Shown one piece after another: positions 4,701 through 19,277 of a stretch of 64,000 nt of DNA. Both the position numbers and the translations under genes were made by a program. Below the pieces are notes generated by a model. It was not told the DNA's origin and did not search any database. It saw only the letters and a program-made list of their open reading frames with translations. Location of the stretch: assembly GCA_019323515.1 (NCBI GenBank), contig JAHWHG010000003.1:31873-95872 (forward strand), given 5' to 3'. Each line of letters begins with the position of its first letter. The stretch's first letter is position 1. Source of the stretch: Candidatus Woesearchaeota archaeon. GTDB lineage: Archaea; Nanobdellota; Nanobdellia; Woesearchaeales; JAHWHD01.

Positions 4701-4974
4701 ACCAGAGGTTAAGGTAAAGACTATGCGCGATTTAAAGAAGATTACAAGGAATGGAAAAGCAAGAAAAAATGAAATTATTGAAATGCTTGCTGCTGTTGAA
4801 GCTCCTCGTGAGACAATAAAGAATGTTTACCATACAATACTATCTTATCTTCTCAATTCTAAGAAGATTACTAAGCGTGAAATTAATGAGATTCTAATCA
4901 ATTTAGCTGATAAGGGTGTTATGACTAAAAAAGATGTAAGTGATGTGATGTTTTCGTTAGAGGTGAAAAAATGA
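1792..4974 (+). CDS. Large surface protein of 1060 aa. It has a Sec signal peptide, Ig-like modules, thrombospondin type-3-like Ca-binding repeats, a single TM helix and a long Lys-rich cytoplasmic tail with repeated FE(R/K)L motifs.
   Basis: The N-terminus MKRVLLLFVCIFFLLAYNASA is a signal peptide. A TAVDKLGNGE motif marks an Ig-like module. There are at least six DxDxDGxxDxxDxCPxT repeats (DNDGDGISDFEDKCPNTP, DADDDGVPDIQDNCPDTP, DTDGDGVDDRNDICPNTP, DSDGDGVPDFEDQCADT). The TM helix is YLAWFLLILGILLLLGGSGYIVY. The C-terminal 230 aa is K/E-rich and repeats FERL/FEKL/FKEL. Confidence 0.6.
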   Translation: MKRVLLLFVCIFFLLAYNASAISQPIITITPEPEIFVSFSENVSVTEYYIYDTTIPRLDKTNIAMTNLDNQNFSFLPNVPLPNDEYTFEITAVDKLGNGELFKKEFVVNSSSTIIKMVHPSHGVSSTQSFDLIVGTSPSADCRWSVISKLPYPSASLFDTTGARAHIIDDFSLLDPVTDPTDFFVTCVDVFDREADAYFELRFDNTKPGITARVEPNPVVQNKSGEAHTVFYVDTDEDTICRWSEQNVKFENMKSFSGESNESMVSYRKHHEQLITLGTQTASYTYYVQCQDLAELLSDQVALGFSVDVEKGMGIKVNSPPEFGSNKSVTLDITTDEESFCDYILGGASSQSFGEGEPSLSHIKPLGVELADGKYTITFRCANAESGPISKTYEFVIDTTPATGVDFNQTPDAICQDKDGDWVIEGNWQGIDLESGVELYQYSVVDYYNIAVINWTQTSSNEVEIDEDLDGNPLNLTVNSKYFFVVRVKNKAGLWSTGYKSHGMIAGAPKSEYCKETNPPTVNIAQVPTDRGINVSIQCTDDTECDSLRQYYNYVYNLYDVCSPSLSYIDPIELRQNAKFCYEVYDIFGNVAIGNVTINLSVVDNDGDGISDFEDKCPNTPITVITEIDEFGCADIERDADDDGVPDIQDNCPDTPYNVTVYLTGEKQGCPIDSDEDGMPDYWEDKYELNKTDPSDAILDKDGDGATNLEEYRAGTDPTNALDFPSKDTDGDGVDDRNDICPNTPSGVSVDTFGERAGCPRDSDGDGVPDFEDQCADTKKDAEIYKEGDKKGCTIPNYLAWFLLILGILLLLGGSGYIVYKISKKKAVVSTAVTYKPISVTKGAPSRIELQRRAMADKAARERAVRLAAARRTREGIISKAFGVSKLRFPEKVKEQGVFERLTSYTKAEDIFSRLGKLTKSKEQEKKESFEKLEKVGSKVKESEAFERLARFKKVKTKGDVFKELSAMVRPEVKVKTMRDLKKITRNGKARKNEIIEMLAAVEAPRETIKNVYHTILSYLLNSKKITKREINEILINLADKGVMTKKDVSDVMFSLEVKK

Positions 4975-5480
4975 ATGCCGTAAAAAAAGCGCAGATTCAG
5001 CATGTATTTATTTATATCCTTGCAATTGTTGTAATAGGCCTTACTTTGATCTTGGGTTACAGAGGAATTAAAAGTGTAATCCAGGGAGGGAATGAGGTTG
5101 CACTTTTAAATTTCCAGAAGCAACTTGAGAATGATATTGAAAGGTTGAGTGCTGCTTATAGGAATAGAGAGATGATACCTTATGATGTGCCTGGGGATTA
5201 TAAACAGATATGTTTTGTTGATGTTATTACTCCTGACGTTACATATCCCTCGGAGCTTGAAGCATATCCCTTTATTAAAGAAAGTGTAGATTCTAATTTG
5301 GAAAGTAATGTTTGGTTAGTATCCCGTAGATCTGAGGACCCTCTTGGAGAGGGTAAGTTAGGTGATATTGAAGTTGATAATGGTTTTGAATGTGTTGATA
5401 TTGTTGGCGGTAAAATAAGGTTGAGTATAGAGGGTACTGGCGGAAAGGCTAAGGTAAAAGGACTTGAAGCAATTTCTTAA
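4971..5480 (+). CDS. Class-III signal peptide (type IV pilin-like) protein.
   Basis: The N-terminus is MNAVKKAQ followed by a hydrophobic helix (IQHVFIYILAIVVIGLTLILGY). This is a KKAQ-type prepilin peptidase site. The start overlaps the upstream stop as ATGA. Confidence 0.5.
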   Translation: MNAVKKAQIQHVFIYILAIVVIGLTLILGYRGIKSVIQGGNEVALLNFQKQLENDIERLSAAYRNREMIPYDVPGDYKQICFVDVITPDVTYPSELEAYPFIKESVDSNLESNVWLVSRRSEDPLGEGKLGDIEVDNGFECVDIVGGKIRLSIEGTGGKAKVKGLEAIS

Positions 5481-5483
5481 AAA

Positions 5484-6518
5484 ATGAAACATAAGAGAGG
5501 ACAGGTAGAACAGCAATTTAATTGGTTGTTTGTTTTGATAGCAGGAGCTGTTATACTCTTGTTTTTTGTAGGAATAATCCTTAGGCAGAAGGGTGCTTCT
5601 GAAACTAAACTTTGTGTAACTATACTTGATGATCTTGATTTGAGTTTTGCAACTTCAAAAGAGCAAGCCGGTATGTCGAGTCCTGTTGATCTTTTTGATG
5701 TAGGGCTTGATTTCTCTTGCGATAATTTTCGTTGTGCAGATATTGATGGACCTGAGAGAAGTCTTGGAAGGACAATCTTGTTTGCTCCAAAAGAGTTAAG
5801 AGGTGATAGGTTACTTACTTGGGCTTTGGAATGGAATATTCCCTTCAAAGTTGATAATTTCTTGTTTGTGACAGCTGAAGAGAATAGATATTATATCTTG
5901 TGCAATTCTGCTTTATCCAATAACTGTCAGAGGGCTAGGAATGTATATGAAAGGATTCCTGACAATTTTACAAAGGATTTCATTGATGTTAGAACAGAAA
6001 TGCCTGAGATTAAGGACTTAAATGATAATAAAGTAAGGTTTTTGCTTTATAATTTAGGAGGTACTAATGAAGTTGAAAATATTATCCAACAAATTATTCC
6101 AAAGTTTGAACGTTTGGAAGATGAAGATGTAACGTTTTTAGTTCTTGATGATTTGAATGCTGGCTTCTATAGTAAACATGGTTCTAGTTTTGAGGATTAT
6201 GGAATAGTTCCATTGCCTGAACAGGAAGGTGCTTCCTTGTATGGAGCTTTGTTCACTGATGATAAGGATAATTTTAATTGTATATTAGAAAAGGCTAAAC
6301 AAAGAGTAAAATGGGTTGCTGACATCTACAGAAGAAAGGCTAGTATGTTTGCAACTCAAGGTGTTACTGATCCGCTTTGCGGATATTATTATGATACTGC
6401 TGTAAATGAACTTACTAAGTTGGTTAATGAGGGTTTTAGTGATTTTGCCTCTGTCAAATCTAAATTAAGGGAAATTAATGGTGATTTACAGAGTAAGACA
6501 TGTCCTTTAATATATTGA
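5484..6518 (+). CDS. Class-III signal peptide (pilin-like) protein of 344 aa with a Cys-containing extracellular domain.
   Basis: The N-terminus is MKHKRGQ followed by VEQQFNWLFVLIAGAVILLFFVGI. Confidence 0.5.
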   Translation: MKHKRGQVEQQFNWLFVLIAGAVILLFFVGIILRQKGASETKLCVTILDDLDLSFATSKEQAGMSSPVDLFDVGLDFSCDNFRCADIDGPERSLGRTILFAPKELRGDRLLTWALEWNIPFKVDNFLFVTAEENRYYILCNSALSNNCQRARNVYERIPDNFTKDFIDVRTEMPEIKDLNDNKVRFLLYNLGGTNEVENIIQQIIPKFERLEDEDVTFLVLDDLNAGFYSKHGSSFEDYGIVPLPEQEGASLYGALFTDDKDNFNCILEKAKQRVKWVADIYRRKASMFATQGVTDPLCGYYYDTAVNELTKLVNEGFSDFASVKSKLREINGDLQSKTCPLIY

Positions 6519-6545: not shown

Positions 6546-7148
6546 ATGAAAAGGGGTCAAGTAAAGATGCTGGAGAATGTGTTTATATTAGTTATATTTT
6601 TTATTCTGCTTGTTATTGGAATTACTTTTTATACAAAGGTTTCAACAAAGAGTGCAGAGATTTATGCAAGGCAGTTGACAGGAGAGGAGGCTGTTAAAAA
6701 ATCGCAAAAGTTACTGCATCTACCAGAAGTGCAGTGTACTTCTGATTTACCAGAATTAACTGCTATTGAAAATTGTGTAGATATTTATAAACTTAAAGCT
6801 TTTGAGGAAGTAGCAAGGGATCAGGGAGACATGTTCCTTGATTATTATTATGATATCTTTGGGTATTCGAGTTTCACAGTAAAACAGGTTTATCCTTCTA
6901 CTATTAAGATTTTAACATCTGAATTAGGAATTACTCCAGGTTCGCCAGATTCTCCAACTGGTGATTATCAGGTGGTTGATAGGGAGTATAATGAAATACA
7001 AGCACCTGAGTGGGTTGTATATAATAAAACTCCAGATGAAATCGTTGATAGCAGGAGGGCTGCAGTTCCTGTCTTGCTTTTTGATGAAACAGTAAGGCCT
7101 TTAGGAAGTTTTAGCCTTGGAATGGTTGTGATAGAGGTTTATTCATAA
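6546..7148 (+). CDS. Class-III signal peptide (pilin-like) protein.
   Basis: The N-terminus is MKRGQ followed by VKMLENVFILVIFFILLVIGITF. The ORF track starts 9 nt earlier at 6537. Confidence 0.5.
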   Translation: MKRGQVKMLENVFILVIFFILLVIGITFYTKVSTKSAEIYARQLTGEEAVKKSQKLLHLPEVQCTSDLPELTAIENCVDIYKLKAFEEVARDQGDMFLDYYYDIFGYSSFTVKQVYPSTIKILTSELGITPGSPDSPTGDYQVVDREYNEIQAPEWVVYNKTPDEIVDSRRAAVPVLLFDETVRPLGSFSLGMVVIEVYS

Positions 7149-7675
7149 TGGAGAGGGTTGAGTCTAAGAGGAAAGGGCAGATGGAGGTATTTGGATTAGC
7201 TTTAATTGTAATTTTATTAGTCATTGGCATGATTTTTGTTGTAAGTTTTATGCTTTTAAGACCGAGCAGAGAGATTCCTGCTATATTTGTGAGCGAACAA
7301 CTTACAAAGAACCTTGTGAATGAGATTCCAAAGGTAACAACTGATTGTAATAAGTATAACCTTGGAGCATTATTAATGGATTGTGCTACTTATGGTCAGC
7401 CTGGTACAATAGCTTGCGGAGGTGAGACATATTCCTGTGAAAAGGCTCATGATGTAGTTGAGGAGATATTTAAGAATACTTTAGAGAAAGAGAAGGTTAA
7501 GTATTTTTTTAGGGCATATGTTATAATGGCTGGACAGGACCAAGGTTCTATATTTGATGATATTGGGCAGGAATGTCTTATTGATGAAGATATAACAACC
7601 GGGCAGCAGCCTTTGCCTTTAGATGTTAATACTTTAATACTTGAATTACAGGTTTGTCATGCTTCAAACACTTGA
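7148..7675 (+). CDS. Class-III signal peptide (pilin-like) protein.
   Basis: The N-terminus is MERVESKRKGQ followed by MEVFGLALIVILLVIGMIFVV. The start and upstream stop are shared as ATAATG. Confidence 0.5.
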   Translation: MERVESKRKGQMEVFGLALIVILLVIGMIFVVSFMLLRPSREIPAIFVSEQLTKNLVNEIPKVTTDCNKYNLGALLMDCATYGQPGTIACGGETYSCEKAHDVVEEIFKNTLEKEKVKYFFRAYVIMAGQDQGSIFDDIGQECLIDEDITTGQQPLPLDVNTLILELQVCHASNT

Positions 7676-7774
7676 ATTTAAAGAAAGATTTATATATTAC
7701 GATATAATAAAACAGAACAATTAAAAGTATGCTATTATGTATGAATGATTATAGAAAATATTAAGAGGTGAATT

Positions 7775-8122
7775 TTGATGGATAAAAAGGCACAGGAAAT
7801 CTCTTTGAATGTTATTATTATAGCTGCAATTGCACTTATAGTATTAGTAGTTATAGTAGCTGTGTTTACTACTGAGTTTGGGGGTTTTGTTAAAAAGCTG
7901 CCGAAGGTTGACGATGCTGAAGTAATTAGGGTTCAGTTGCTTTCAAATTATGACTGTAAGCCAAGTAAGACTGGAATTGCAGAAGTTAAAAAGAATCTTG
8001 AAAATGTTGCAACAGAAGAGTATGATTCAAGATACACTGTTGCAATTAATGATTTAGTAAACTCCTGTGGTCAGAATGGAAAGTCTGCTTGTACAAGGAG
8101 TTGTGAGTGGAAGGGTTCTTAG
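7775..8122 (+). CDS. Small pilin-like protein of 115 aa with a class-III signal. It is a candidate major pilin.
   Basis: The N-terminus is MMDKKAQ followed by EISLNVIIIAAIALIVLVVIVAVF, with a Q-x-S-L motif as in EppA-type pilins. It has its own AT-rich upstream region with TATA-like boxes and an AAGAGGTG ribosome-binding site. Confidence 0.55.
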   Translation: MMDKKAQEISLNVIIIAAIALIVLVVIVAVFTTEFGGFVKKLPKVDDAEVIRVQLLSNYDCKPSKTGIAEVKKNLENVATEEYDSRYTVAINDLVNSCGQNGKSACTRSCEWKGS

Positions 8123-8159: not shown

Positions 8160-8216
8160 TTCATAATATTTATATACTATTTATTCTGTTATTTAACTAA
8201 AAGGAGGTCATTTTCT
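8160..8216 (+). promoter_or_regulatory. Promoter-like AT-rich TATA region plus a strong Shine-Dalgarno site for the small pilin gene at 8217.
   Basis: The TATA-like sequence is atatttatatact. AAGGAGGT lies 9 nt before the ATG. Confidence 0.4.
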
Positions 8217-8486
8217 ATGAAAAAGGGACAAGGAATGCCGTTGAATGTTATCATAATAGCTATCATTGTTATTTTAGTAGGAATTGTTTTGATAGCAGTG
8301 TTTAATAGATATATAACAGGGGAGACAGGAAGATTAGAAAGCTGTGTAGCAAAGGGTGGTCAGTGTAAGTTGAGAGTTAATAATGTTGAAGGTTCAGGTT
8401 GTAATAAGGAAACTGAAGTTTACTTGCCAAAGACTGATTGTGAGAAAGGTACAAATAAGGATTGCTGTTTAAAGGTGTTGGGTTAA
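8217..8486 (+). CDS. Small pilin-like protein of 89 aa with a class-III signal and a Cys-rich C-terminal half. It is a candidate major pilin.
   Basis: The N-terminus is MKKGQ followed by GMPLNVIIIAIIVILVGIVLIAVF. A strong AAGGAGGT ribosome-binding site lies 9 nt upstream and TATA-like sequence lies upstream. There are 6 Cys in the last 45 aa. Confidence 0.55.
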   Translation: MKKGQGMPLNVIIIAIIVILVGIVLIAVFNRYITGETGRLESCVAKGGQCKLRVNNVEGSGCNKETEVYLPKTDCEKGTNKDCCLKVLG

Positions 8487-8605
8487 TGCGAATATTGAAG
8501 AAAGGCCAGATAGAGATGAGAACTTTAGTAATCCTTATAATTATTATAATGTTAGCTTTATTACTATTTATGATGATATGGAGGTTGACTAATCTTGCGG
8601 GATAA
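8486..8605 (+). CDS. Mini pilin-like ORF of 39 aa, absent from the ORF track because it is shorter than 60 aa.
   Basis: It reads MRILKKGQIEMRTLVILIIIIMLALLLFMMIWRLTNLAG. It has the same KKGQ-plus-hydrophobic-helix architecture. Its start overlaps the upstream stop as TAATG. Confidence 0.4.
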   Translation: MRILKKGQIEMRTLVILIIIIMLALLLFMMIWRLTNLAG

Positions 8606-9347
8606 GAAAGGTGTAGAGCTTGCATGGAGCAAGACAGCTGGCTTGCTTATTATGTTAATTGGGTTTATAGCGATTTTAGTGGTCATATATGCTTTAAGGT
8701 CTACAGTTGACAAAGAGCAGCCAAGGATTTTGTGCCAGACAAGCAACGGGTTTAGAGCTAGGAATGCATTAACAATTGGCGATATAAATAAGATTATGAA
8801 TGAAAAGATTCCTTTAGGTCCTCTTAAATGTAAGATTACTAATTTTACTGTCCAGACTGAGAAGGATTTGGCTGATAGGATTGCTTATACTTGGGAAGAT
8901 TTTTTGATGGGAGAGTATACATGGATGTTTCCTGATTATGACCAGGATTGTATGGTATATTACTCTTTTACGCTTGAAAATGATGCTCCTCCAATTTCTG
9001 CAAATGATTTCACGAATAAGTTAAAGCAGATGACATACAAACTAGACCCTAAGACTGGTGATCCTATAACTTATCTTGATTATGTGCAGAATTATGCTGG
9101 TGAGGGTAAGGTTATAGTTGATAATACGCTTGGTGCTTTTGCACCTGGACAGATTTATGGGATTGCAATAGTCAGTCCGATACTGCCACAGGATAGGTCT
9201 CTTTATTGGAGTGCAAAGACATTTCTCAATGGCTTGTACCAATCTTATTGGGTTGGAAAGACTCCTATGGATTATCCTGAGCATAATGTTATTATCATCG
9301 GAGACCTGAATAAAATACAGAACAGTGGTGAGTGTTTTGGCATCTAA
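8595..9347 (+). CDS. Class-III signal peptide (pilin-like) protein of 250 aa.
   Basis: It has a TTG start. The N-terminus is (M)RDKKGVELAWSKTAGLLIMLIGFIAILVVIYAL. Confidence 0.5.
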   Translation: MRDKKGVELAWSKTAGLLIMLIGFIAILVVIYALRSTVDKEQPRILCQTSNGFRARNALTIGDINKIMNEKIPLGPLKCKITNFTVQTEKDLADRIAYTWEDFLMGEYTWMFPDYDQDCMVYYSFTLENDAPPISANDFTNKLKQMTYKLDPKTGDPITYLDYVQNYAGEGKVIVDNTLGAFAPGQIYGIAIVSPILPQDRSLYWSAKTFLNGLYQSYWVGKTPMDYPEHNVIIIGDLNKIQNSGECFGI

Positions 9348-9489
9348 GAAAGGAGTAGAACTTGCATGGTCACAGATAGTTATAATACTTATAGTGCTTG
9401 CCTTGATCTTATTTTTTATATTTTTTTCGGGTTCTATTAAGGAGCAGTTGATTGATAAGATAAAGTCATTTTTCAATATATTCAGATGA
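9337..9489 (+). CDS. Mini pilin-like ORF of about 50 aa with a TTG start.
   Basis: It reads (M)ASKKGVELAWSQIVIILIVLALILFFIFFSGSIKEQLIDKIKSFFNIFR. Its N-terminal KKGVELAWS is nearly identical at the nucleotide level to the start of the 8595 gene. Confidence 0.35.
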   Translation: MASKKGVELAWSQIVIILIVLALILFFIFFSGSIKEQLIDKIKSFFNIFR

Positions 9490-10871
9490 ATAAGAAAGGT
9501 TTAACATGGAGTGTAATAGTAATATTAATCATTGTATTAGTTGTAGGTTTAGTTGTATTGATGATGTTGTTTGGTGGAAAAGGTTTCTTGAGCAGGCTTG
9601 CTTCTAATATATTAGGATTGAATGTTACATTTGGTGTTGAGCCAAGGCCAGCAGGACCGTTAGTTGCGCAACCTAATGTCGATGCAGATTTTAAGTTGGT
9701 CACTCAAGCGATCAGTTCTGTGCAGAATATGAAGGATTACAGATGCAGGCTTAATCTTAGCGAATGGAAAACTATTGAAGAAGGTTATAGCTTAGTGATG
9801 ACTCCAAAGAATCCTGGAATCTGGGTTGCTTTGAACCAGGATGATAAGATAGTTAAACAGCAGGAATATGCTACACTTCAGCTTTGTTCAATTGAAGCAA
9901 GGGTAGGTTCAAGTTTCCATAATAATTGGGTTAAGAAAGTTTATCCTAGACAGCCTGAGGTACCAAGAAGCGAGACAAAGATTACAGTTGATAAAGATAA
10001 TGTATTTACAAACACTATCAATTATGATGTAGCAAACCTTATGTTATATAAAGTCCTGAATGACAGAATTTGTGTATTGCATACAGCTCCTGTAGCATTG
10101 AAAGATTATTTGAATAACGTCCCTGTATGTTCTTCGGGAGCCTTAGAAGTTAATTTAAGTTCTTTTGTTGCTGAGATGTCAGATGGTTATGGTTTGGGGT
10201 TTGATTTGTATATCTCTGTGCATGGCAGCCATAAGGAATTGGAGAGTTTACTGAATTCTTCAAGGGACAAGTTTGTTGATGGATTTAAGGATATTAAAAC
10301 AGTAAGTGGCTTGACAAAGGATGAAATCTCCAAGCAACCTGACAATAAATCTTATGTTAAGGAAAAGATAAAGAGCGGAGTTATATCAATATTTCATGGT
10401 GTTGTTGGAAATTATTACTCTGGTTTATTTAATGATCTTAGGCTTTATGATATTCGTATTATTGATAAGGCAAAAGTAAAGCTGCCTAATGAACTAGTTG
10501 AGGCTTTTAATAAAGGGGATTTTGCTAAAGCTGAGCAATTGTATGGTCAATTGCATTCAAAACAGAAATTTGAACCAAATTTTATTGCTTATCCTCTTAA
10601 TATGGATCTTGCAAAGTTTTTTGAAAGCGTATTTGCTAAACAGTCTAAGCAGACTGCAAATCTGAATTATGTTGATAATTTAGGAGCAAAGCATCCTTAT
10701 AAGATCGAGATAACTCAAGTATCAAAAGATAGTTTTGATTTTTCATTCTATATTGATAATGTTAGGAAGGATTGTCATTGGATGTGGGGGATGAGAGGGG
10801 GCACCATTACAAACGATAGAATTAGAGAATCAATTACGTTACAAGATTTTGAGAAGATGTGCAGTTATTAA
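9486..10871 (+). CDS. Class-III signal peptide (pilin-like) protein of 461 aa with a large extracellular domain.
   Basis: The N-terminus is MNKKG followed by LTWSVIVILIIVLVVGLVVLMMLFGG. Confidence 0.5.
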   Translation: MNKKGLTWSVIVILIIVLVVGLVVLMMLFGGKGFLSRLASNILGLNVTFGVEPRPAGPLVAQPNVDADFKLVTQAISSVQNMKDYRCRLNLSEWKTIEEGYSLVMTPKNPGIWVALNQDDKIVKQQEYATLQLCSIEARVGSSFHNNWVKKVYPRQPEVPRSETKITVDKDNVFTNTINYDVANLMLYKVLNDRICVLHTAPVALKDYLNNVPVCSSGALEVNLSSFVAEMSDGYGLGFDLYISVHGSHKELESLLNSSRDKFVDGFKDIKTVSGLTKDEISKQPDNKSYVKEKIKSGVISIFHGVVGNYYSGLFNDLRLYDIRIIDKAKVKLPNELVEAFNKGDFAKAEQLYGQLHSKQKFEPNFIAYPLNMDLAKFFESVFAKQSKQTANLNYVDNLGAKHPYKIEITQVSKDSFDFSFYIDNVRKDCHWMWGMRGGTITNDRIRESITLQDFEKMCSY

Positions 10872-13433: not shown

Positions 13434-13775
13434 ATGAAGAAAGGTCAGGGCTTTACATGGGAGACTTTGATTACTGCTACTATCGTAATATTGGTAGGAG
13501 TTATTGTAATTTTTATATTTAGAAGCTATATAAATAAGCAGACCGGAGCTATTGATACTCAGCTTGCTTCTTTAGGTGATTGTGATTGTGATGGGATTGC
13601 TAATATGTTTGATGAATGTAAGTGTGAAAAAGGAAGTGCTGAATTTAAGGGTTGTACAAAGGATCCATCACAGATGAAAGATGATGAGAAGAAATGTAAA
13701 TTGACTTCTCTTGATCAGTGTCCAGAGAATAAGTTTCCAGGAAATAAGTGTCCTCCTATTGATATTGCAAAATGA
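13434..13775 (+). CDS. Small pilin-like protein of 113 aa with a class-III signal and a Cys-rich C-terminal domain.
   Basis: The N-terminus is MKKGQ followed by GFTWETLITATIVILVGVIVIFIF. An AAGGAGGTG ribosome-binding site and an AT-rich promoter-like region lie upstream. Nine Cys residues include a CDCDG motif. Confidence 0.55.
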   Translation: MKKGQGFTWETLITATIVILVGVIVIFIFRSYINKQTGAIDTQLASLGDCDCDGIANMFDECKCEKGSAEFKGCTKDPSQMKDDEKKCKLTSLDQCPENKFPGNKCPPIDIAK

Positions 13776-14521
13776 GGACTAAATTTAAAATGAAAAAAGC
13801 AATTGCACCTCAATTTCTTGTATCATTCTTAATTGGGGCTTTACTAATTGTTTCAGTTGTTTTTATCTTAAAGGGATGTGTTGATGTTACTAATGTCGCA
13901 ACTTCAGATTATGAAAGTCTTGTTAGGGAGATGAATAGTCTCCAGCAAGGACAGAGGAAAAGCGTAAGGTTAACTATGGATGATGGCACTGCTTTATTTG
14001 GAATATCTAAAAATGCAGATAAAGTACAAATGACTTCTACAACGCTATGGGGGTTAGTTGACAGCTGGAAACTGACATTTGAACGGCCAGTTCAGTGTAC
14101 AAAGGGTAGTGCTTGTGTGTGCTTATGTAAACGTGATTTAGGTTTGAAGGAGTTTGCAGCCATACGTTCTTATACAATTCGATGTGACCCTAATGCACTT
14201 ACGTGTAAGCCTTTGAGCAGGGATATTTATAGCTCTAACTCTGAAATGTTGAAGAATTCTGATCTGGGTTTAGATGAATCTGATTTTGGGCCTTATAGTT
14301 TTAAGGGCGGCTTCTTTTTTGAGAAGGAATCAGGGTCTAGTTCTCTGGTTGATTTTATCCAGACTGTTGGCGGTACTGTTGATAAGAATATATTTAAAGG
14401 TCTTTCGCAGCAGCATGTGAAATCAGTTACTATTGAGAATTATAAAGATAGAATGGTTGTATGTTTTAAATCTCCTTGTTTTAGTCAGGAGATGAAGGCC
14501 GAGGTTGATAGGAATCCATGA
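13772..14521 (+). CDS. Class-III signal peptide (pilin-like) protein of 249 aa.
   Basis: The N-terminus is MRTKFKMKKA followed by IAPQFLVSFLIGALLIVSVVFIL. An alternative ATG lies at 13790. The start overlaps the upstream stop. Confidence 0.45.
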   Translation: MRTKFKMKKAIAPQFLVSFLIGALLIVSVVFILKGCVDVTNVATSDYESLVREMNSLQQGQRKSVRLTMDDGTALFGISKNADKVQMTSTTLWGLVDSWKLTFERPVQCTKGSACVCLCKRDLGLKEFAAIRSYTIRCDPNALTCKPLSRDIYSSNSEMLKNSDLGLDESDFGPYSFKGGFFFEKESGSSSLVDFIQTVGGTVDKNIFKGLSQQHVKSVTIENYKDRMVVCFKSPCFSQEMKAEVDRNP

Positions 14522-15342
14522 AATCTAGAAAAGCTCAAGCAATGATTTTGATAACTGTACTTGCTATTGTTATTTTTGGCGTTGTTATCGCAAGGGTTGC
14601 AAAGACTGTTGGTACTGATGAAAATCTTATTACTAGGGCAATAGTAAGAAACCATAAGTTGGCTGCGGAGTTAGCAGGGTTTGCACCAGGAAATGTCTAT
14701 TTTTTGAATACAGGAAATATATCTTACGAAACAAAGGTTGTTAATAATCTTATAAGTGTTGATGATAAGAATGCCTTTATTGTATCAAAGACTGTTTTGA
14801 ATGAGCAGTTAGGGAAGCCTAATCAACTTTATTTTGTTAAATCAGGTGAAGTTGTTGATATTTCAACAAATTTTGACAATAAGTCCTTAAAGGCTAGGCA
14901 TTATAATGATATTAGTTTGGGTGGAAGATTTCCAATAGTCTTTGTTTACAAAAGTACTTACCCTCAATTGGCTACTTTAATTGATAGGCTAAAGGATGAT
15001 TTAGTTAAACAGAATTATAATGTAAAGATTAATCCTACAACTCTCGATCCAAGGGATGTTGTTATTGTTTTTGATGCTGTACCAACCAACAATGAAGTTA
15101 TAAAGGTTTATTTTGAGTTGAATAAGGACAAGAGTGTTCAGATGAAAAGCAGAAAATTAGCTGTTTTATTGTTGAATAGTATGTTAAGTGAATTTGAATT
15201 TAATCCTCTTGTCGTACCAGCTTATAAATCCAACCTTGGAGCTTATGATGTTGCTGTAAGGTTAGAGATTGAACAATCAATGCTTGATAAGTATTATTTG
15301 CACACTCCTATAAGGGAAGCGATCATAAAATTTTTGCAGTAA
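14518..15342 (+). CDS. Class-III signal peptide (pilin-like) protein of 274 aa.
   Basis: The N-terminus is MKSRKAQ followed by AMILITVLAIVIFGVVIA. The start overlaps the upstream stop as ATGA. Confidence 0.5.
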   Translation: MKSRKAQAMILITVLAIVIFGVVIARVAKTVGTDENLITRAIVRNHKLAAELAGFAPGNVYFLNTGNISYETKVVNNLISVDDKNAFIVSKTVLNEQLGKPNQLYFVKSGEVVDISTNFDNKSLKARHYNDISLGGRFPIVFVYKSTYPQLATLIDRLKDDLVKQNYNVKINPTTLDPRDVVIVFDAVPTNNEVIKVYFELNKDKSVQMKSRKLAVLLLNSMLSEFEFNPLVVPAYKSNLGAYDVAVRLEIEQSMLDKYYLHTPIREAIIKFLQ

Positions 15343-15343
15343 A

Positions 15344-15802
15344 ATGCCAGAAGAATTTGAAACAGGACAAGCACCAATGTGGTGGATATTTTATGGAATC
15401 ATAATGCCTATATTAGTTATACTGTTTATCTTCTTTATCAGTCAATATAAATCTGTTGCTATTGCACAGACGCATAATGTAGAGACTTTGGGATACCAAC
15501 AGATGTTTCTTAACAGTGACTGTCTTTGCTATCAAGATCATTTGACTGGTAGGTTGTACCCTGGAGTGATTGAAAAAAGTAAGTTTAACAGCCAATGGTT
15601 TAGTAATTGTTTTACTAATAATCCTTTAAATTATGGTTTTAGGTTAACTCTTATCGACCATGTTGGGAAGATACTTGGTCAGGTGTCAAAGGATATTAAT
15701 ACTAATTTTAAAAGTACAAAGAGCGTTGTCCCGATCCTTGTAAGAGATAACAATGGATATTATAATGCAAAGCTTGAGGTTGAGGTGTGGTTTGGTGGAT
15801 AA
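15344..15802 (+). CDS. Membrane-anchored protein of 152 aa, possibly an atypical pilin-like protein.
   Basis: The N-terminus is MPEEFETGQ followed by APMWWIFYGIIMPILVILFIFFI. It has the G-Q-hydrophobic pattern but an acidic rather than basic leader. Confidence 0.35.
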   Translation: MPEEFETGQAPMWWIFYGIIMPILVILFIFFISQYKSVAIAQTHNVETLGYQQMFLNSDCLCYQDHLTGRLYPGVIEKSKFNSQWFSNCFTNNPLNYGFRLTLIDHVGKILGQVSKDINTNFKSTKSVVPILVRDNNGYYNAKLEVEVWFGG

Positions 15803-16325
15803 AAAAGCTATGAGGCCTTATGCAGATTTTGTAGCTGCTTTGTTAATATTGGCAGTTTTTTATTTTACTTATTTTAACATTGCCTATGGCGGCCAGATTA
15901 AGCAAATAGAAAGTAAGGTTGAGGAAGCTACAATAAATTTTGGTAATGGTTATCTTATTTTTACTTACCTTAATTCGCCAATTTTCGGTCAAGGCGCTGA
16001 TGCATCACACTTAAAAAACATTCCTGGTCTTGATTCTTCAACGATTAATGAACTTACTAAGGATTTCAATTATCTTAAGAAATTGACTTATGCGGATTTA
16101 ATAGTCCTGCATGAAGCTAGTGGTAATGATGCTTATAGTATCTTGTTAAAGGAGCTTTCAACTGCTGAGCTTGATAGATTGGTAGGGAAGGATAAGTGGA
16201 GATTGAATATAGATGGGGATTTTTATGGAAGAAGTTTTGTAAGTGCTAATACTTTTTCATACTATACTATGCTTCAAGGTTTAGATTATAAGGATTTGAG
16301 GATTGAATTGTATGTTGAGAAATAA
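15795..16325 (+). CDS. Class-III signal peptide (pilin-like) protein.
   Basis: It has a GTG start. The N-terminus is (M)DKKAMRPYADFVAALLILAVFYFTYF. The ORF track begins at an upstream in-frame ATG at 15753 that overlaps the previous gene. Confidence 0.4.
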   Translation: MDKKAMRPYADFVAALLILAVFYFTYFNIAYGGQIKQIESKVEEATINFGNGYLIFTYLNSPIFGQGADASHLKNIPGLDSSTINELTKDFNYLKKLTYADLIVLHEASGNDAYSILLKELSTAELDRLVGKDKWRLNIDGDFYGRSFVSANTFSYYTMLQGLDYKDLRIELYVEK

Positions 16326-17253
16326 GAAGTCACAATTATTGATTGGAATTGCAGCTGCTTTAATATTAGGTGTAGTGATATTTAGCATTTATGCTGCAAG
16401 GCAAGTACGTGAAGGTGGTGTGAAAGCTTTTGTTGGCGAGGAGCAGATTGAACTTATTGCAGCTTATCAAGCGGTGGGGGATGATCTTTTTTATATCGAT
16501 AAGGCTGCTGAGTTTGCTTTACACAAAACATTATTTGATTTTGCTAATAATGGAGGTCTTATGAGGTCTAGTTGTATTACTGCGGATGGTAATCTTTGGT
16601 CAGGTGGTTGTTTCCCTAAAGAGCTTGAGAAAAATTTTGAATATTACTATGCCTTAAACTTCAAGCCGAATGCTGCGCTTTATTCGTATATTGATTACGA
16701 TTTTGTTGTGTTTAATGGATTAGAGGTAATTGGTATAAGTGATGAACCTTTAAGTTTTACGATTGCTTCTCCTAGAACTAATAAAGATATTGGAAGATTT
16801 GAGGTAAGACCGGATTTCCATGTAAAAGTTGATTATGATTTAGAGGTGTATAATAAGTTGGGCGTGTTAGCTGCTCAGCTAGAGGAATGCAAGACTGATA
16901 CTTTGAGGTGTGTGAGTACGAAGATGGGTGATTTTATGGCAAATAACCCAATTGAGGTTTATCTTGAGGATTGTAATACTCCTGGTTCAAGCCTTCCAGC
17001 TGACTTTTCTAGTAAACATATATTGAGGTTTTGTGCTCGCGAAATTGATAAGAAGTTTATGACAAAAAATGGTTTTAAAGCGCCTGAGATTAAATTTGCT
17101 GTTGATGTTTTGCAGACTGGAACAAGTGTTTCTTCACCAGCTGTTCCTAGTGCAGTTCCTTCGCAGCCTTCAGCATCAGCTACTGGTATTGGACCTAGTG
17201 TTACAAGTAGTACCACTTTGGGAGGTAGAACTGTTTATATTGTAAAACTGTGA
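16312..17253 (+). CDS. Class-III signal peptide (pilin-like) protein with a Ser/Pro/Thr-rich C-terminus.
   Basis: The N-terminus is MLRNKKSQ followed by LLIGIAAALILGVVIFSIYAA. The C-terminus is SSPAVPSAVPSQPSASATG. Confidence 0.5.
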   Translation: MLRNKKSQLLIGIAAALILGVVIFSIYAARQVREGGVKAFVGEEQIELIAAYQAVGDDLFYIDKAAEFALHKTLFDFANNGGLMRSSCITADGNLWSGGCFPKELEKNFEYYYALNFKPNAALYSYIDYDFVVFNGLEVIGISDEPLSFTIASPRTNKDIGRFEVRPDFHVKVDYDLEVYNKLGVLAAQLEECKTDTLRCVSTKMGDFMANNPIEVYLEDCNTPGSSLPADFSSKHILRFCAREIDKKFMTKNGFKAPEIKFAVDVLQTGTSVSSPAVPSAVPSQPSASATGIGPSVTSSTTLGGRTVYIVKL

Positions 17254-17259
17254 TGAAAA

Positions 17260-18636
17260 ATGAACAAAAAAGTTGTAATATTCACGATTATGCTTTGTAT
17301 CTTGCCTTTTGTTATGGGGCAAAACTATTCAAATATTATTGATGAAATTCCTTTAATTAAGACACCAACTGAATATAATCAGATTAAAGATTTGATTGAG
17401 GGTTTTAATAATAATATAATTATTGAGATTACAAATAAGAACATTGATGTTAACAATGAAGTTGATTATCTCTCTAACCGTCTTAGTAAGGACTCATGCA
17501 ATGTTGTTATATTAATGCTTAACTATGAGCTTAAAGTTTCTCCTGATAAATGTAATTTTGACCAGTCTTATCTCAAGAGTCCTGCAATTATTAATGCATT
17601 GCAGACAGAGGATTATATTGGTGCGTTAGTTAACCTTATTCATTATGTAATTGAAAATAATCCCATTAAATCAAAGGAAGAATCGCAGCAAACAAAGCCT
17701 CTACAGGTTTTGAGACCTGGAGAGATTAATCGTGATGCTCTTTTTAAGGTTCTTATAGTCCCTGTTGATTGGAAAAATAAGGCTATATATTTATCTGAAG
17801 CAAGTTACGTTAGAGAAAAAATTAAATCTGCATTTCCATTTGGGGGTTGTGAGGATAAGATTGAAGTGATTATTCCTGAGTTATTGGATTATGGCGATTC
17901 TTGGCGAGATAGTTCCTGTTATGTCCCTTATCAGCACTGTAATACTTTTAGGTTATTAACCCCGCTTGCGGAAATACCCAATAAACCTTATAGCGTTCTT
18001 AGTCAACTTGATTTTATATACAATTGTGCTAAGCAATATCAATCTAAAACAGGTATTTCATTTGATAGAGTGATTGGATTAATAGAAGAAGATTTAAGTC
18101 CTCATGCGGAAAAATGTTCTGATGGAATGTCTGGTGGTGGTTGGACATTTATGTATTCTCCTGTTATTATCAGTCATAAGGATTCTGTTATCCATGAGTT
18201 AGGGCACACTTTTGGTTTTAATGAGCAGTATTGTGACATGGAATATAAAGCTGTTTCACCTCAATATTATAATAGCCGAGTGTTTAATCCATCATTTTTT
18301 GTTAAAAATCCATTATTTGATTCACAAAAAACGCAACTTTGTGGTATGTATGATTTAGTTAACCCTTTGCAACCTTCTCTTGGTTGTGCAGGGGCGTTGG
18401 ATAAGGGTTGTTTTAATGCTTTTGACGACGATGGTGATACGATGATGTTAGGTAATTATGATAGGTTTGCAAAAGATACTAATGGAGACGGTAAGTTGGA
18501 TTCTGGTGCAAGGACTGCAATGTCTAGTGGTTTTAATTATGATATCAATGAGTTCAATCATCTTAAGAAGTTTCTTGGATGTGATAAACAATTTTCACAA
18601 AGTTATTTAAGGGCTAATTCGCCTGGGAGGTATTGA
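17260..18636 (+). CDS. Secreted zinc metalloprotease (metzincin-like, HExxHxxG).
   Basis: The N-terminus MNKKVVIFTIMLCILPFVMG-QNY is a Sec-type signal peptide. The motif HELGHTFGFNEQYCDM is HExxHxxG followed by Cys/Met, as in metzincin and archaemetzincin-like enzymes. Confidence 0.55.
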   Translation: MNKKVVIFTIMLCILPFVMGQNYSNIIDEIPLIKTPTEYNQIKDLIEGFNNNIIIEITNKNIDVNNEVDYLSNRLSKDSCNVVILMLNYELKVSPDKCNFDQSYLKSPAIINALQTEDYIGALVNLIHYVIENNPIKSKEESQQTKPLQVLRPGEINRDALFKVLIVPVDWKNKAIYLSEASYVREKIKSAFPFGGCEDKIEVIIPELLDYGDSWRDSSCYVPYQHCNTFRLLTPLAEIPNKPYSVLSQLDFIYNCAKQYQSKTGISFDRVIGLIEEDLSPHAEKCSDGMSGGGWTFMYSPVIISHKDSVIHELGHTFGFNEQYCDMEYKAVSPQYYNSRVFNPSFFVKNPLFDSQKTQLCGMYDLVNPLQPSLGCAGALDKGCFNAFDDDGDTMMLGNYDRFAKDTNGDGKLDSGARTAMSSGFNYDINEFNHLKKFLGCDKQFSQSYLRANSPGRY

Positions 18637-19277
18637 CAATGATGAGAAAAGTCTTAATATATGTTTTTTTATTCCTAATCCTTGCAACCTCAGTCTTTTC
18701 TATCCCTTGTCTAGACCTACGAATTATTCTTTCTGATGATGATATTAGTGTTGATTATTCAGTTTTTGATGGTGAATTGGATTATACTTTTTCAGATAAA
18801 GGTGATTATGAATTAAGTCTTTTAGGGAACCAGGGAGTTTTGTTTCAAAATTATTATTCTTTTAGTAGGATAATGGATAATAAAAGAATTGATCTTGAAG
18901 ATACAAAGCTAATTTCAGATGTTATTCCATTTACTAAGGAAATGAAGTTTTTTGAGTTGAGAAGAGATAATGAACTGCTTAAACGAATTGAATTAGAACT
19001 TTGTAATGATAATGGCCTATGTGATTCTAAGGAGAATTCCTTAACTTGTAATGATTGTAATCCAGAAGGACAAGATAACTTGTGTATTAGCATTGAAGAT
19101 GATTTTTGTGACCCTGATTGTTTAGAGGGATTTGATCCTGATTGTTTAATAGAAGAGACAAAAGAAACTTCGAAATTGAAATGGCTTTTGTGGATTTTTG
19201 GTTTTATCCTGTTAGCTGTTTTAACCTTCTTGTACTTTAAAATTATAAAGAAGGAGAAATCTGTTGTGAAATCTTAG
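18633..19277 (+). CDS. Cys-rich surface protein with an N-terminal signal peptide and a C-terminal TM anchor.
   Basis: The N-terminus is MTMMRKVLIYVFLFLILATSVFS. A CNDNGLCDSKENSLTCNDCNPEG...CDPDC...DPDC Cys cluster is present. The C-terminal TM is WLLWIFGFILLAVLTFLYF followed by KIIKKEK. Confidence 0.45.
   Translation: MTMMRKVLIYVFLFLILATSVFSIPCLDLRIILSDDDISVDYSVFDGELDYTFSDKGDYELSLLGNQGVLFQNYYSFSRIMDNKRIDLEDTKLISDVIPFTKEMKFFELRRDNELLKRIELELCNDNGLCDSKENSLTCNDCNPEGQDNLCISIEDDFCDPDCLEGFDPDCLIEETKETSKLKWLLWIFGFILLAVLTFLYFKIIKKEKSVVKS

What the first reader, a model, noticed from the sequence alone, without database searches (positions are those of the whole stretch)
4971..19277. A 14-kb island of about 16 consecutive class-III (type IV pilin-like) signal-peptide genes with no assembly machinery in the window
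Almost every ORF from 4971 to 17253 begins with a short basic leader ending K/R-G/A-Q or G followed by a 20-aa hydrophobic helix. The leaders are MNAVKKAQ, MKHKRGQ, MKRGQ, MERVESKRKGQ, MMDKKAQ, MKKGQ, MRILKKGQ, RDKKGVE, ASKKGVE, MNKKG, MKKGQ, MKMKKA, MKSRKAQ, VDKKAM and MLRNKKSQ. The Q at +1 and the Q-x-S/E-L pattern are hallmarks of EppA-type archaeal pilins. The genes are packed with ATGA/TAATG overlaps, which points to one or two operons. Three small ones (7775, 8217, 13434) have their own strong ribosome-binding site and promoter, as expected for major pilins. Two mini-ORFs of 39 and 50 aa fit the same pattern. The larger members carry diverse, mostly unrecognisable extracellular domains. 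The island ends with a Sec-secreted HExxH metzincin-like protease and a Cys-rich C-terminally anchored protein. An isolated seventeenth member with a cadherin-like domain sits at 35661. This number of pilin-like paralogs with heterogeneous C-terminal domains suggests a surface appendage or adhesion system. In a small-genome DPANN-like archaeon it may serve host-cell contact. I regard it as the strongest candidate for an undescribed system in this window.
Basis: partly seen in the sequence, partly recalled or inferred. Interest (0 to 1): 0.8.

Follow-up and report, generated by a model that had tools for sequence, protein, structure and literature searches.

The report
Conserved Woesearchaeal pilin-like surface gene cluster
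This stretch of a tiny, uncultivated DPANN archaeon (Woesearchaeota) carries about 16 unannotated genes whose products all start with a conserved pilin-type cleavage signal. The same gene set, in the same order and next to giant adhesin-like proteins, occurs in hundreds of related species, so it is a good candidate for the still-unknown genes behind their surface or host-contact filaments.

Summary
A [KR][GA]+hydrophobic-helix rule hits 14 ORFs between 4971 and 17253; two more deviate. Elsewhere in the window it hits only ORF 35661 and one likely false positive. The window is from a Ca. Woesearchaeota MAG and holds no secretion ATPase, platform or A24 peptidase.

This is not a strain-specific island or a paralog expansion. 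It is a syntenic core cluster: giant Sec-secreted surface proteins, then four conserved proteins (g1-g4), small Cys-rich pilin-like proteins with their own TATA box and ribosome-binding site, two roughly 45-aa mini-pilins, and eight or nine larger members. The marker protein g2 has relatives in at least 232 GTDB species and 2,123 protein clusters; no curated model recognises any member. Position -3 is K/R in 90% and +1 is Q in 62% of 537 sites (background 11% and 3%).

Two confident AlphaFold models lack a canonical pilin head: g4 is PAS/Cache-like and g2 has no structural relative.

One cluster-bearing genome encodes an EppA-type A24 peptidase. Published work reports flaI, flaJ and flaK in Woesearchaeota.

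Best reading (about 0.55): structural subunits of a type-IV-filament-class adhesive surface structure, assembled by machinery encoded elsewhere. I rate it a new variant of a known kind.

The parts
4..1740 (+). C-terminal 578 aa of a roughly 2023-aa Sec-secreted giant surface protein (family F0; Ig-like Big_13 and CarboxypepD_reg repeats). The gene begins upstream of the window.
   Evidence: the full gene is seen in L001. A giant ORF of at least 700 aa lies directly upstream of the cluster in 55 of 72 related loci.
1792..4974 (+). 1060-aa Sec-secreted surface protein (F0) with thrombospondin type-3 Ca-binding repeats, a C-terminal TM helix and a Lys/Glu-rich cytoplasmic tail. Its stop overlaps the g1 start (ATGA).
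4971..5480 (+). g1 (family F6), 169 aa, N-terminus MNAVKKA|Q plus helix.
   Evidence: HMM E 1.5e-59; 54 of 57 family members carry the motif; +1 Q in 85%.
5484..6518 (+). g2 (family F1), 344 aa, N-terminus MKHKRG|Q. This is the marker family of the cluster. The model has a continuous N-terminal helix (residues 5-60), then a beta domain, an alpha/beta domain and a helical bundle. It has no structural relative.
6546..7148 (+). g3 (family F3), about 200 aa, N-terminus MKRG|Q (the listed ORF starts at 6537). +1 Q in 97% of the family.
7148..7675 (+). g4 (family F4), 175 aa, N-terminus ...KRKG|QME. Q+1 and E+3 are invariant, with 6 conserved Cys. The ectodomain has a PAS/Cache (PDC)-like fold.
7689..7696 (+). 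TATA-like box (TTTATATA) upstream of the first small pilin-like gene.
7778..8122 (+). Small pilin-like protein (F31/F23/F2 superfamily), 114 aa, N-terminus MDKKA|Q. It has its own TATA box and GAGGTG ribosome-binding site and is followed by an oligo-T tract. Candidate major subunit.
8169..8176 (+). TATA-like box upstream of 8217.
8217..8486 (+). Small Cys-rich pilin-like protein (F2), 89 aa, N-terminus MKKG|Q. Candidate major subunit.
   Evidence: (F2 HMM E 6e-21).
8486..8605 (+). Mini-pilin 1 (about 39 aa from the ATG at 8486; N-terminus MRILKKG|Q). It is essentially a bare helix, similar in size to Flp/Epd pilins.
   Evidence: (positional counterparts in 18 of 48 loci).
8595..9347 (+). F5 family member, 250 aa, N-terminus (M)RDKKG|VE.
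   Evidence: E 2.4e-34.
9325..9489 (+). Mini-pilin 2 (54 aa or fewer; N-terminus ...SKKG|VELAWS) with a conserved aromatic C-terminal tail.
   Evidence: counterparts in 22 of 48 loci.
9486..10871 (+). F13 family member, 461 aa, N-terminus MNKKG|L.
   Evidence: F13 HMM E 6e-10.
13386..13393 (+). TATA-like box upstream of 13434.
13434..13775 (+). Small F2-like pilin-like protein, 113 aa, N-terminus MKKG|Q, with a TSP3-like Ca-binding motif (DCDCDGIANMFDEC).
13772..14521 (+). F11 family member, 249 aa, N-terminus ...MKKA|I.
   Evidence: E 6e-57.
14518..15342 (+). F7 family member, 274 aa, N-terminus MKSRKA|Q.
   Evidence: E 2.7e-16.
15344..15802 (+). F9 family member, 152 aa. The site is degenerate here (ETG|Q); 15 of 18 family members carry the motif.
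15753..16325 (+). Fast-evolving member of about 175-190 aa (N-terminus ...VDKKA|M). Positional counterparts of 160-198 aa with the motif occur in most loci.
16312..17253 (+). F8 family member, about 313 aa, N-terminus MLRNKKS|Q. It is the last conserved gene of the cluster.
   Evidence: E 5e-70.
17260..19277 (+). Two lineage-specific Sec-secreted proteins, co-oriented with and coupled to the cluster: a 458-aa protein with an HELGH motif and a 214-aa Cys-rich protein with a C-terminal anchor. They are not part of the conserved set.
35661..36662 (+). F10 family member, 333 aa, N-terminus MKKG|Q. In other genomes this family sits directly upstream of the giant protein. Here it is displaced and followed by an 883-aa secreted protein.
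   Evidence: E 7.8e-83.

Best explanation
The region is the structural-gene cluster of a type-IV-filament (TFF)-class cell-surface structure that is characteristic of Woesearchaeota.

Proposed mechanism:
1. About 16 proteins are made with a short basic leader ending [KR][KR][G/A/S].
2. An A24-family (EppA/FlaK-type) class III signal peptidase, encoded elsewhere in the genome, cuts the leader before a usually conserved Gln.
3. The remaining hydrophobic N-terminal helix then serves as the assembly module.
4. The small proteins with their own promoters (7778, 8217, 13434) and/or the roughly 45-aa mini-pilins (8486, 9325) build the shaft.
5. The larger, single-copy, order-conserved members carry diverse ectodomains and act as minor or tip subunits. 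The four members g1-g4 are translationally coupled to the giant adhesin-like proteins upstream, so they may prime assembly and present or anchor those proteins. This would resemble the minor pilins and PilY1 in bacteria.
6. Extrusion is driven by a FlaI/FlaJ-like ATPase and platform encoded at another locus.
7. The likely role is adhesion, plausibly contact with a host cell.

Shown here: the motif and its conservation, the synteny, the operon structure, the predicted folds of g2 and g4, and an A24 peptidase in one cluster-bearing genome.

Inferred: cleavage, filament assembly, the role of each subunit, and the biological function.
For: 1. Motif clustering. 14 canonical and 2 deviant sites lie in 12 kb, against 2 hits elsewhere in 52 kb.
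2. Motif conservation. Across 537 sites in 16 orthologous families, -3 is K/R in 90% (background 10.7%) and +1 is Q in 62% (background 3.2%). In g4, Q+1 and E+3 are 100%. The motif stays next to the helix while leader length ranges from 3 to 60 aa.
3. Helix conservation. In g2, g3, g4 and the small F2 proteins, the motif-plus-helix segment is more conserved than the ectodomain (identity 0.63-0.71 against 0.42-0.47), and each family has its own helix sequence. That is expected for subunits that pack through the helix.
4. Mini-pilins. Conserved genes of 40-60 aa have a mature part that is little more than the helix. That makes sense for a filament subunit but not for an anchor of an ectodomain.
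5. Expression signals. The small members have separate TATA boxes, ribosome-binding sites and a terminator, and occur as 1-3 tandem copies. This is typical of major subunits.
6. g2 model. It has a continuous 56-residue N-terminal helix followed by a beta-sheet domain.
7. Linkage to adhesin-like proteins. The gene order is fixed and coupled to giant surface proteins.
8. Peptidase. A Peptidase_A24 + Arc_PepC protein with both Asp motifs lies on the same contig as a cluster in L038.
9. Literature. flaI, flaJ and flaK are reported in Woesearchaeota genomes (PMC5994134; PMC8407392). [quoted passage not shown] TFF systems 1 and 4A occur in some DPANN (bioRxiv 10.64898/2026.04.22.720090).
Against: 1. 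No curated class III or archaeal pilin model (PF04021, PF07790, TIGR02537-type) matches any member, even at permissive E-values. Only 1 of 47 small members touches Flp1_like, at E 0.006.
2. A classical FlaFind-type pattern, which I recalled from memory, fits only 81 of 666 cluster proteins. A polar stretch of 4-7 residues follows the putative cut site.
4. No secretion ATPase or FlaJ/TadC-like platform gene lies within 10 kb of the cluster in any of more than 80 genomes, and an A24 peptidase does so in only one, L038. This is atypical for archaeal TFF loci.
5. Presence of the machinery in this particular genome could not be checked.
6. Module-B families show no extra helix conservation.
7. There are no expression, proteome or imaging data.
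Confidence: 0.55

Rival explanations
1. A cluster of uncleaved type-II (N-in) single-pass membrane proteins. The basic N-terminus simply obeys the positive-inside rule. The proteins form a membrane-anchored envelope or surface complex, for example a scaffold that holds the giant surface proteins or an S-layer-like coat. No prepilin peptidase or filament assembly is involved.
For: The ectodomains are not pilin-like: g4 has a PAS/Cache fold with a flexible linker after the TM helix, and g2 is novel. Curated class III models do not match. A classical FlaFind-type pattern mostly fails. No assembly genes lie in cis in more than 80 loci. Module-B helices are no more conserved than their ectodomains.
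Against: The positive-inside rule does not explain the small residue at -1 together with Q at +1 (62% against 3.2% background; up to 100% in some families), nor its fixed position next to the helix whatever the leader length. Conserved mini-proteins of 40-60 aa have no ectodomain to anchor. The helices of g2, g3, g4 and F2 are more conserved than their ectodomains. A24 peptidases exist in the lineage (PMC5994134).
Confidence: 0.22
2. A bindosome-like or pseudopilus-like array. The proteins are processed by the class III peptidase but are not built into a long filament. They stay at or just above the membrane as a short pseudopilus or oligomeric platform. This displays ligand-binding or sensor-like ectodomains and the giant proteins, to capture nutrients or recognise a partner cell.
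Against: None of the members resembles a known substrate-binding protein family. No ABC transporter is linked to the cluster. The small members and mini-pilins with strong expression signals look like shaft subunits.
Confidence: 0.18
3. A degenerate or divergent archaellum gene set.
For: Published KEGG-style annotations call FlaI, FlaJ, FlaK and even FlaA/FlaD in Woesearchaeota (PMC8407392).
Against: No member matches the archaellin domain or FlaF/FlaG/FlaH families in Pfam or NCBIfam. The gene content and order are unlike fla/arl operons. Giant adhesin-like proteins are attached to the cluster.
Confidence: 0.02

Closest known systems
Methanococcus maripaludis Epd pili (archaeal TFF 'system 1'), with the dedicated EppA peptidase
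   Same: Gln at +1 of the cleavage site. Polar residues in the first few mature positions. A very short major pilin lacking a globular head. Many different minor pilin-like proteins are required. Some pilin genes are encoded away from the ATPase and platform locus. The peptidase is the 9-TM A24 form, the same type as the one found in L038. System 1 is reported in some DPANN (bioRxiv 10.64898/2026.04.22.720090).
   Different: No member matches DUF361/PF04021 or any arCOG-derived pilin model available here. There are about 16 signal-bearing genes, far more than the handful of pilin-like genes in the 11-gene Epd cluster. The ATPase and platform are never in the cluster. Giant surface proteins are co-transcribed with it. 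The ectodomains are unrelated to Epd minor pilins as far as sequence can tell.
Bacterial type IVa minor-pilin/PilY1 operon (fimU-pilVWXY1E) and the type II secretion pseudopilins GspH-K
   Same: An operon of several different low-abundance pilin-like proteins with a fixed order is encoded together with a very large adhesin. In bacteria these prime assembly and sit at the filament tip. The family-specific conserved N-terminal helices and an acidic residue near the mature N-terminus (E+3 in g2 and g4) recall the E5 of bacterial pilins.
   Different: It is in a different domain of life, and there is no sequence or detected fold similarity. The acidic residue is at +3, not +5, and is not universal. 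There are many more members. This is an analogy only.
Sulfolobus bindosome (Bas) and class III-signal substrate-binding proteins
   Same: A class III-type N-terminus is attached to ectodomains that are not pilin folds. The g4 ectodomain has a ligand-binding sensor-type fold.
   Different: No substrate-binding-protein families and no linked ABC transporter. In the bindosome locus the ATPase and platform are adjacent, whereas here they are absent from the cluster.
Attachment organelle and intercellular filament of Nanobdellota (YN1, Nanobdella aerobiophila)
   Same: A related DPANN lineage with a host-contact structure that includes a roughly 6.6-nm filament. Its protein components are explicitly unknown (PMC11420986).
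   Different: No genetic or structural link has been shown. Presence of this cluster in Nanobdellales was not testable here. The organelle also has a cone and portal for which nothing in this cluster is an obvious candidate.

Membership tests
Archaeal class III signal peptide / type IV pilin-like proteins (TFF subunits) | A short positively charged leader ending K/R at -2 and G/A/S at -1, immediately followed by a hydrophobic helix of about 20 residues. | tested here: met
   14 island ORFs and ORF 35661 meet it. At least 90% of members in most of the 16 orthologous families meet it, and -3 K/R (90%) and +1 Q (62%) were not imposed by the rule.
Archaeal class III signal peptide / type IV pilin-like proteins (TFF subunits) | Recognition by curated N-terminal models (Pfam PF04021 Class_IIIsignal/DUF361, PF07790 Pilin_N; NCBIfam archaeal flagellin-N-terminal-like domain). 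| tested here: not met
   No hit at E <= 0.1 (Pfam) or E <= 1 (NCBIfam) for any island protein. Among 47 F2-family members, none hits PF04021 or PF07790, and 1 hits Flp1_like at E 0.0056.
Archaeal class III signal peptide / type IV pilin-like proteins (TFF subunits) | Classical FlaFind-type cut-site pattern with hydrophobic residues at +2 to +4 (pattern recalled from memory, Szabo et al. 2007). | tested here: not met
   81 of 666 cluster proteins fit; in the window only 14518 and 35661 do. A polar stretch of 4-7 residues follows the putative cut. Polar early positions are also a feature of EppA substrates (my own knowledge).
Archaeal class III signal peptide / type IV pilin-like proteins (TFF subunits) | Actual cleavage by an A24 prepilin peptidase. 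| not testable with these tools
   Needs N-terminal proteomics or a cleavage assay. Indirect support only: an A24 + Arc_PepC peptidase on a cluster-bearing contig.
Archaeal class III signal peptide / type IV pilin-like proteins (TFF subunits) | Pilin fold: a long N-terminal helix whose C-terminal half packs on a beta-sheet head domain, with structural similarity to known pilins, pseudopilins or archaellins. | tested here: inconclusive
Complete archaeal TFF system (ATPase + platform + pilin + class III peptidase) | A VirB11/FlaI-type secretion ATPase and a FlaJ/TadC platform encoded with, or at least in the same genome as, the pilins. | tested here: not met
   This row answers the co-localisation part only. 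None is present in the 64-kb window or within 10 kb of the cluster in more than 80 related loci. Presence elsewhere in the same genome was not testable. The literature reports flaI and flaJ in Woesearchaeota (PMC5994134, PMC8407392).
Complete archaeal TFF system (ATPase + platform + pilin + class III peptidase) | A class III signal peptidase (Peptidase_A24) in the genome. | tested here: inconclusive
   Found in 1 related cluster-bearing contig: L038, PF01478 at 28.5 bits (cutoff 26.5) plus PF06819 at 25.3 bits (cutoff 23.4), with motifs YTD and AGDAKL. It is not in the window.
Archaellum (arl/fla) operon | Archaellin domain proteins plus FlaF/G/H/I/J. | tested here: not met
   No such Pfam or NCBIfam family is hit by any island protein.
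Metzincin / zinc metalloprotease (claim for ORF 17260) | A recognisable metalloprotease domain around HExxH (extended HExxHxxGxxH plus a Met-turn for metzincins). | tested here: not met
   The sequence reads HELGHTFGFNE, so the third His is absent. There is no Pfam, NCBIfam or PDB-sequence hit.

The most novel reading that the evidence does not exclude
The cluster encodes a Woesearchaeota-wide, multi-subunit host-contact organelle that is not just another pilus. In this reading, about 16 different class III-type subunits with family-specific helices form a heteromeric filament, or a filament with a base and tip complex, that carries the giant adhesins. This would make it the first genetic handle on the DPANN intercellular filaments and attachment structures, whose proteins are currently unknown (PMC11420986). 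It might use non-canonical processing or assembly; a presenilin/SPP-type protease is inserted in the cluster in one genome, and no ATPase is ever linked to it.
Probability: 0.2. Interest if true: 0.85.

Novelty: new variant of a known kind. Interest (0 to 1): 0.66.

Why it matters
Woesearchaeota are among the most widespread uncultivated archaea. They have tiny genomes and presumably depend on other cells, yet the genes for their surface and contact structures are essentially unknown.

The published picture is inconsistent. One genomic survey stated that type IV pilus components are missing in DPANN (bioRxiv 10.1101/2020.05.14.094862). The main census of archaeal T4P found ATPases in 'nanoarchaea' but could not identify the cognate pilins (PMC4858521). 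Cryo-ET studies of related DPANN see host-piercing filaments whose proteins are unknown (PMC11420986).

This cluster takes up about 1% of a roughly 1-1.5 Mb genome. It is conserved in gene order across at least 232 species, and its marker family g2 alone spans more than 2,000 protein clusters. It is invisible to Pfam and NCBIfam.

It therefore offers:
- concrete candidate subunits, with predicted cleavage sites;
- 16 family profiles that could improve TFF detection in DPANN;
- testable targets for metaproteomics, heterologous cleavage assays and structure prediction of complexes.

Tried and rejected
1. Hidden assembly genes in the window. Pfam scans of about 30 further ORFs plus topology and GxGD inspection of the rest found nothing. 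The right flank beyond the window holds ribosomal protein genes.
2. Inserted gene families inside the cluster in other genomes as possible machinery. F19/F27/F33 are NuoE/NuoF/Fe-hydrogenase-like by their sequence motifs. F29/F24/F25 are a Ser/Thr kinase and PhoU-like and Lrp-like regulators. All are unrelated insertions.
3. Walker-A and P-loop regex searches and a polytopic-protein scan over about 1,400 flank proteins found no secretion ATPase or platform. They did find one A24 peptidase and one SPP.
4. A metagenome scan with the L038 peptidase, meant to find its neighbours, returned no relatives. I judged a second scan with a motif-only pattern too unspecific and did not run it.
5. The search for homologous proteins with g4 alone returned only itself. 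It worked only when an alignment was used as the query.
6. PDB profile searches with F2 and F4 gave no significant hits. Archaeal pilin-type chains (8fk7, 8rey) scored only E 0.4-0.7, on the helix alone.
7. A Foldseek search against AFDB50 was unavailable.
8. Viral or mobile origin is rejected. There are no relatives in IMG/VR, and GC content matches the surroundings.
9. Paralog expansion is rejected by profile-profile comparison of the ectodomains.
10. The protease and cadherin readings of 17260 and 35661 are not supported.

Full report
WHAT IS THERE

The window is archaeal. It holds an archaeal RNase P RNA and genes for RadA, RadB, PCNA, RPA and GyrA, and its GC content is a uniform ~34%. 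An exact protein match identifies the source as a Candidatus Woesearchaeota MAG, locus tags KY330_00730 and KY330_00740, on a 166,628-bp contig. NCBI places Woesearchaeota in the kingdom Nanobdellati, that is DPANN.

I applied a FlaFind-like rule, [KR][GA] followed by at least 17 hydrophobic residues with at most one charge, to all 311 ORFs of at least 35 aa. It gives 16 hits:
- 14 lie between 4971 and 16325.
- 1 is ORF 35661.
- 1 is a probable false positive in an ABC-2 permease.
ORF 16303 has Ser at -1, and ORF 15344 has a degenerate site. Two minus-strand genes (10883-13288) interrupt the run.

Gene junctions are ATGA (four cases), TAATG (two cases) or a few bases. The only true plus-strand intergenic gaps precede 7778, 8217 and 13434. 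Each of these has a TTTATATA box 35-50 nt upstream and a GGAGGT-type ribosome-binding site, and an oligo-T tract follows 7775-8122. TTTATATA is over-represented in the window (23 matches against 9.3 expected). It also precedes RPA and the RNase P RNA, so it is a plausible TATA box.

The plus-strand genes therefore fall into about four transcription units:
- the giant proteins plus g1-g4;
- 7778 alone;
- 8217 to 10871;
- 13434 to at least 17253.

NO ANNOTATION, NO MACHINERY IN CIS

None of the roughly 20 island proteins hits any Pfam family at E <= 0.1 or any meaningful NCBIfam family at E <= 1. That includes the curated class III and pilin N-terminal models.

The rest of the window holds housekeeping genes, a glycosylation cluster, ABC-2 transporter genes and pyrimidine biosynthesis genes. 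It has no secretion ATPase, no FlaJ/TadC platform and no A24 peptidase. The DNA beyond the right edge encodes ribosomal proteins.

IT IS A CONSERVED CORE CLUSTER, NOT AN ISLAND OF PARALOGS

The 344-aa protein g2 (5484-6518) has homologs at 25-38% identity in Woesearchaeota and Nanoarchaeota MAGs. A scan of one genome per GTDB species found 232 genomes with a relative, and I kept 80 loci. An exhaustive HMM search of 1.84 billion cluster representatives found 2,123 clusters at E <= 1e-3 and 1,036 at E <= 1e-30.

Gene order around g2 is conserved:
1. one or two giant Sec-secreted surface proteins (1,000-3,100 aa; CarboxypepD_reg, Big_13 and TSP3 domains);
2. g1 (family F6);
3. g2 (F1);
4. g3 (F3);
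5. g4 (F4);
6. one to three small proteins of 80-140 aa (F2/F23/F31);
7. a mini-gene of about 45 aa;
8. F5, in one or two copies;
9. a mini-gene of about 50 aa;
10. F13;
11. a small F2-like protein of about 100 aa;
12. F11 or F14;
13. F7;
14. F9 or F15;
15. a fast-evolving protein of about 170-200 aa;
16. F8;
17. often followed by RPA, as in this window.

In 36 loci with at least 9.5 kb downstream of g2, the families occur as follows:
- g3: 33
- g4: 33
- F2-type small gene: 33
- F5: 30
- F7: 29
- F11 or F14: 28
- F9 or F15: 25
A giant ORF lies directly upstream in 55 of 72 loci.

Profile HMMs place almost every window gene in one of these families. The two mini-ORFs have positional counterparts with the same motif in 18 and 22 of 48 loci.

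With the helix trimmed off, the ectodomains of different families are unrelated by hhalign. The exceptions are F9~F15 and F11~F14, which are positional equivalents in different subclades. The members are therefore distinct orthologs with distinct roles, not recent paralogs.

The HELGH protein (17260), the Cys-rich protein (18633) and the minus-strand pair are lineage-specific. IMG/VR holds no relative.

IS THE N-TERMINAL SIGNAL REAL?

Across 537 sites in 16 families, compared with background composition:
- -3 is K/R in 90% (background 10.7%).
- +1 is Q in 62% (background 3.2%).
- +1 Q by family: F3 97%, F4 100%, F6 85%, F10 90%, F2 79%.
- In F4, E+3 is also invariant.
Neither -3 nor +1 was imposed by the search rule.

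Leader length varies from 3 to 60 aa, yet the motif always abuts the helix.

In g2, g3, g4 and F2 the motif-plus-helix segment is markedly more conserved than the ectodomain: identity 0.63-0.71 against 0.42-0.47, and 2.9-3.2 against 1.75-2.1 bits. Each family has its own helix sequence (see also the invariant columns). Subunits that pack through their N-terminal helices are expected to show this. Generic anchors are not. Module-B families (F5, F13, F11, F7, F9, F8) do not show it.

There is contrary evidence. Curated models do not recognise the N-termini. A classical FlaFind-type pattern, which I recalled from memory, fits only 81 of 666 proteins, because a polar stretch of 4-7 residues follows the putative cut. 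This deviation may explain why earlier censuses missed these proteins.

STRUCTURES

So the larger members carry non-pilin ectodomains on a pilin-type N-terminus, as the class III-signal binding proteins of the Sulfolobus bindosome do.

The small F2 proteins consist of the helix plus a 4-6-Cys knot, with weak defensin- or knottin-like hits. The mini-pilins are little more than a helix.

MACHINERY ELSEWHERE

No secretion ATPase or platform lies within 10 kb of the cluster in any of the more than 80 loci.

One locus, L038, has a split cluster (g1-g4 plus two F2 genes). It encodes a 370-aa, 9-TM protein that exceeds the Pfam cutoffs for Peptidase_A24 and for the archaeal A24 C-terminal domain. Both catalytic Asp motifs are present. 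The gene lies 1.5 kb from the cluster on the opposite strand. At least one cluster-bearing genome therefore has an EppA-type class III signal peptidase.

Another locus, L078, has a presenilin/SPP-type GxGD protease directly after g4. This is a single occurrence and remains unexplained.

Published genome surveys report flaI, flaJ and flaK in Woesearchaeota (PMC5994134; PMC8407392). Makarova et al. [quoted passage not shown] The 2026 TFF census places systems 1 and 4A in some DPANN and Nanoarchaeota (bioRxiv 10.64898/2026.04.22.720090). By contrast, another study stated that T4P components are missing in DPANN (bioRxiv 10.1101/2020.05.14.094862).

INTERPRETATION

The best-supported model, at about 0.55, is that these are the structural subunits of a TFF-class surface structure. 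An A24 peptidase would process them, and a FlaI/FlaJ-type machine encoded elsewhere would assemble them.
- The small, separately transcribed proteins and/or the mini-pilins would form the shaft.
- The larger single-copy members would be minor or tip subunits.
- g1-g4 are translationally coupled to the giant adhesin-like proteins. They may prime assembly and present those proteins, by analogy with minor pilins and PilY1.

The rivals are:
- uncleaved type-II membrane proteins forming an envelope complex (about 0.22);
- a processed but non-filamentous, bindosome-like display platform (about 0.18).

Adhesion or host contact is an inference. It rests on the DPANN lifestyle, the adhesin-like partner proteins and cryo-ET of related lineages, where the filament proteins are unknown (PMC11420986).

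NOVELTY AND SCORE

The principle, class III-signal subunits of a type IV filament, is known. The new features are:
- the families themselves, all unannotated;
- the deviant cut-site context;
- the size of the set and its fixed order;
- the non-pilin ectodomains;
- the coupling to giant surface proteins;
- the consistent separation from the assembly genes.

I rate it a new variant of a known kind, with interest 0.66.

Noticed in passing
L078:5338-6279 (+): A 313-aa, 9-TM presenilin/signal-peptide-peptidase-type GxGD protease (PF06550, E 1.6e-17) is encoded directly after g4, inside the cluster, in one genome. SPPs cut type-II oriented TM helices, which is the topology of the cluster proteins.
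   Followed up: partly
L038:7422-8534 (-): A 370-aa protein with Peptidase_A24 plus the archaeal A24 C-terminal domain (the 9-TM, EppA-like form), carrying the motifs YTD and AGDAKL. It lies 1.5 kb from a split copy of the cluster (g1-g4 plus two F2 genes).
   Followed up: yes
window 13434-13775 and 1792-4974: The small pilin-like protein at 13434 carries a thrombospondin-type-3-like Ca-binding motif (DCDCDGIANMFDEC). The giant upstream surface protein carries the same kind of repeat, and BLAST clustering joined the two.
   Followed up: partly
window 10883-13288 (-): Two minus-strand genes are inserted in the cluster. The 554-aa one has a lipoprotein-like N-terminus and a weak PGAP1-like alpha/beta-hydrolase match. 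A 534-aa minus-strand gene sits at the same position in the closest related locus, L008.
   Followed up: partly
window 39296-40222 (-): A 308-aa protein with a twin-arginine-like N-terminus (SRRSLLSRMAG) and an HERAH (HExxH) motif. It has no Pfam hit.
   Followed up: no
window 26525-33374 (+): A glycosylation gene cluster: PMT_2-type and Alg9/PMT-like membrane glycosyltransferases, two GT2 enzymes and a 10-TM protein. It could glycosylate surface proteins.
   Followed up: no
window 35661-39315 (+): The F10-family class III-type protein at 35661 is followed by an 883-aa Sec-secreted protein with no family match. In other genomes F10 sits directly upstream of the giant protein of the cluster.
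   Followed up: partly
window 53257-55656 (+): A 799-aa protein with a lamin-tail domain, likely another surface protein.
   Followed up: no
window 61875-62206 (+): Archaeal RNase P RNA (Rfam RF00373, 149 bits), preceded by a TTTATATA box at 61844.
   Followed up: yes
L008-L087 record titles: Many cluster-bearing MAGs in the genome collection are titled 'uncultured Methanosarcinales archaeon'. They carry this Woesearchaeota-type cluster, so the labels are probably wrong.
   Followed up: no
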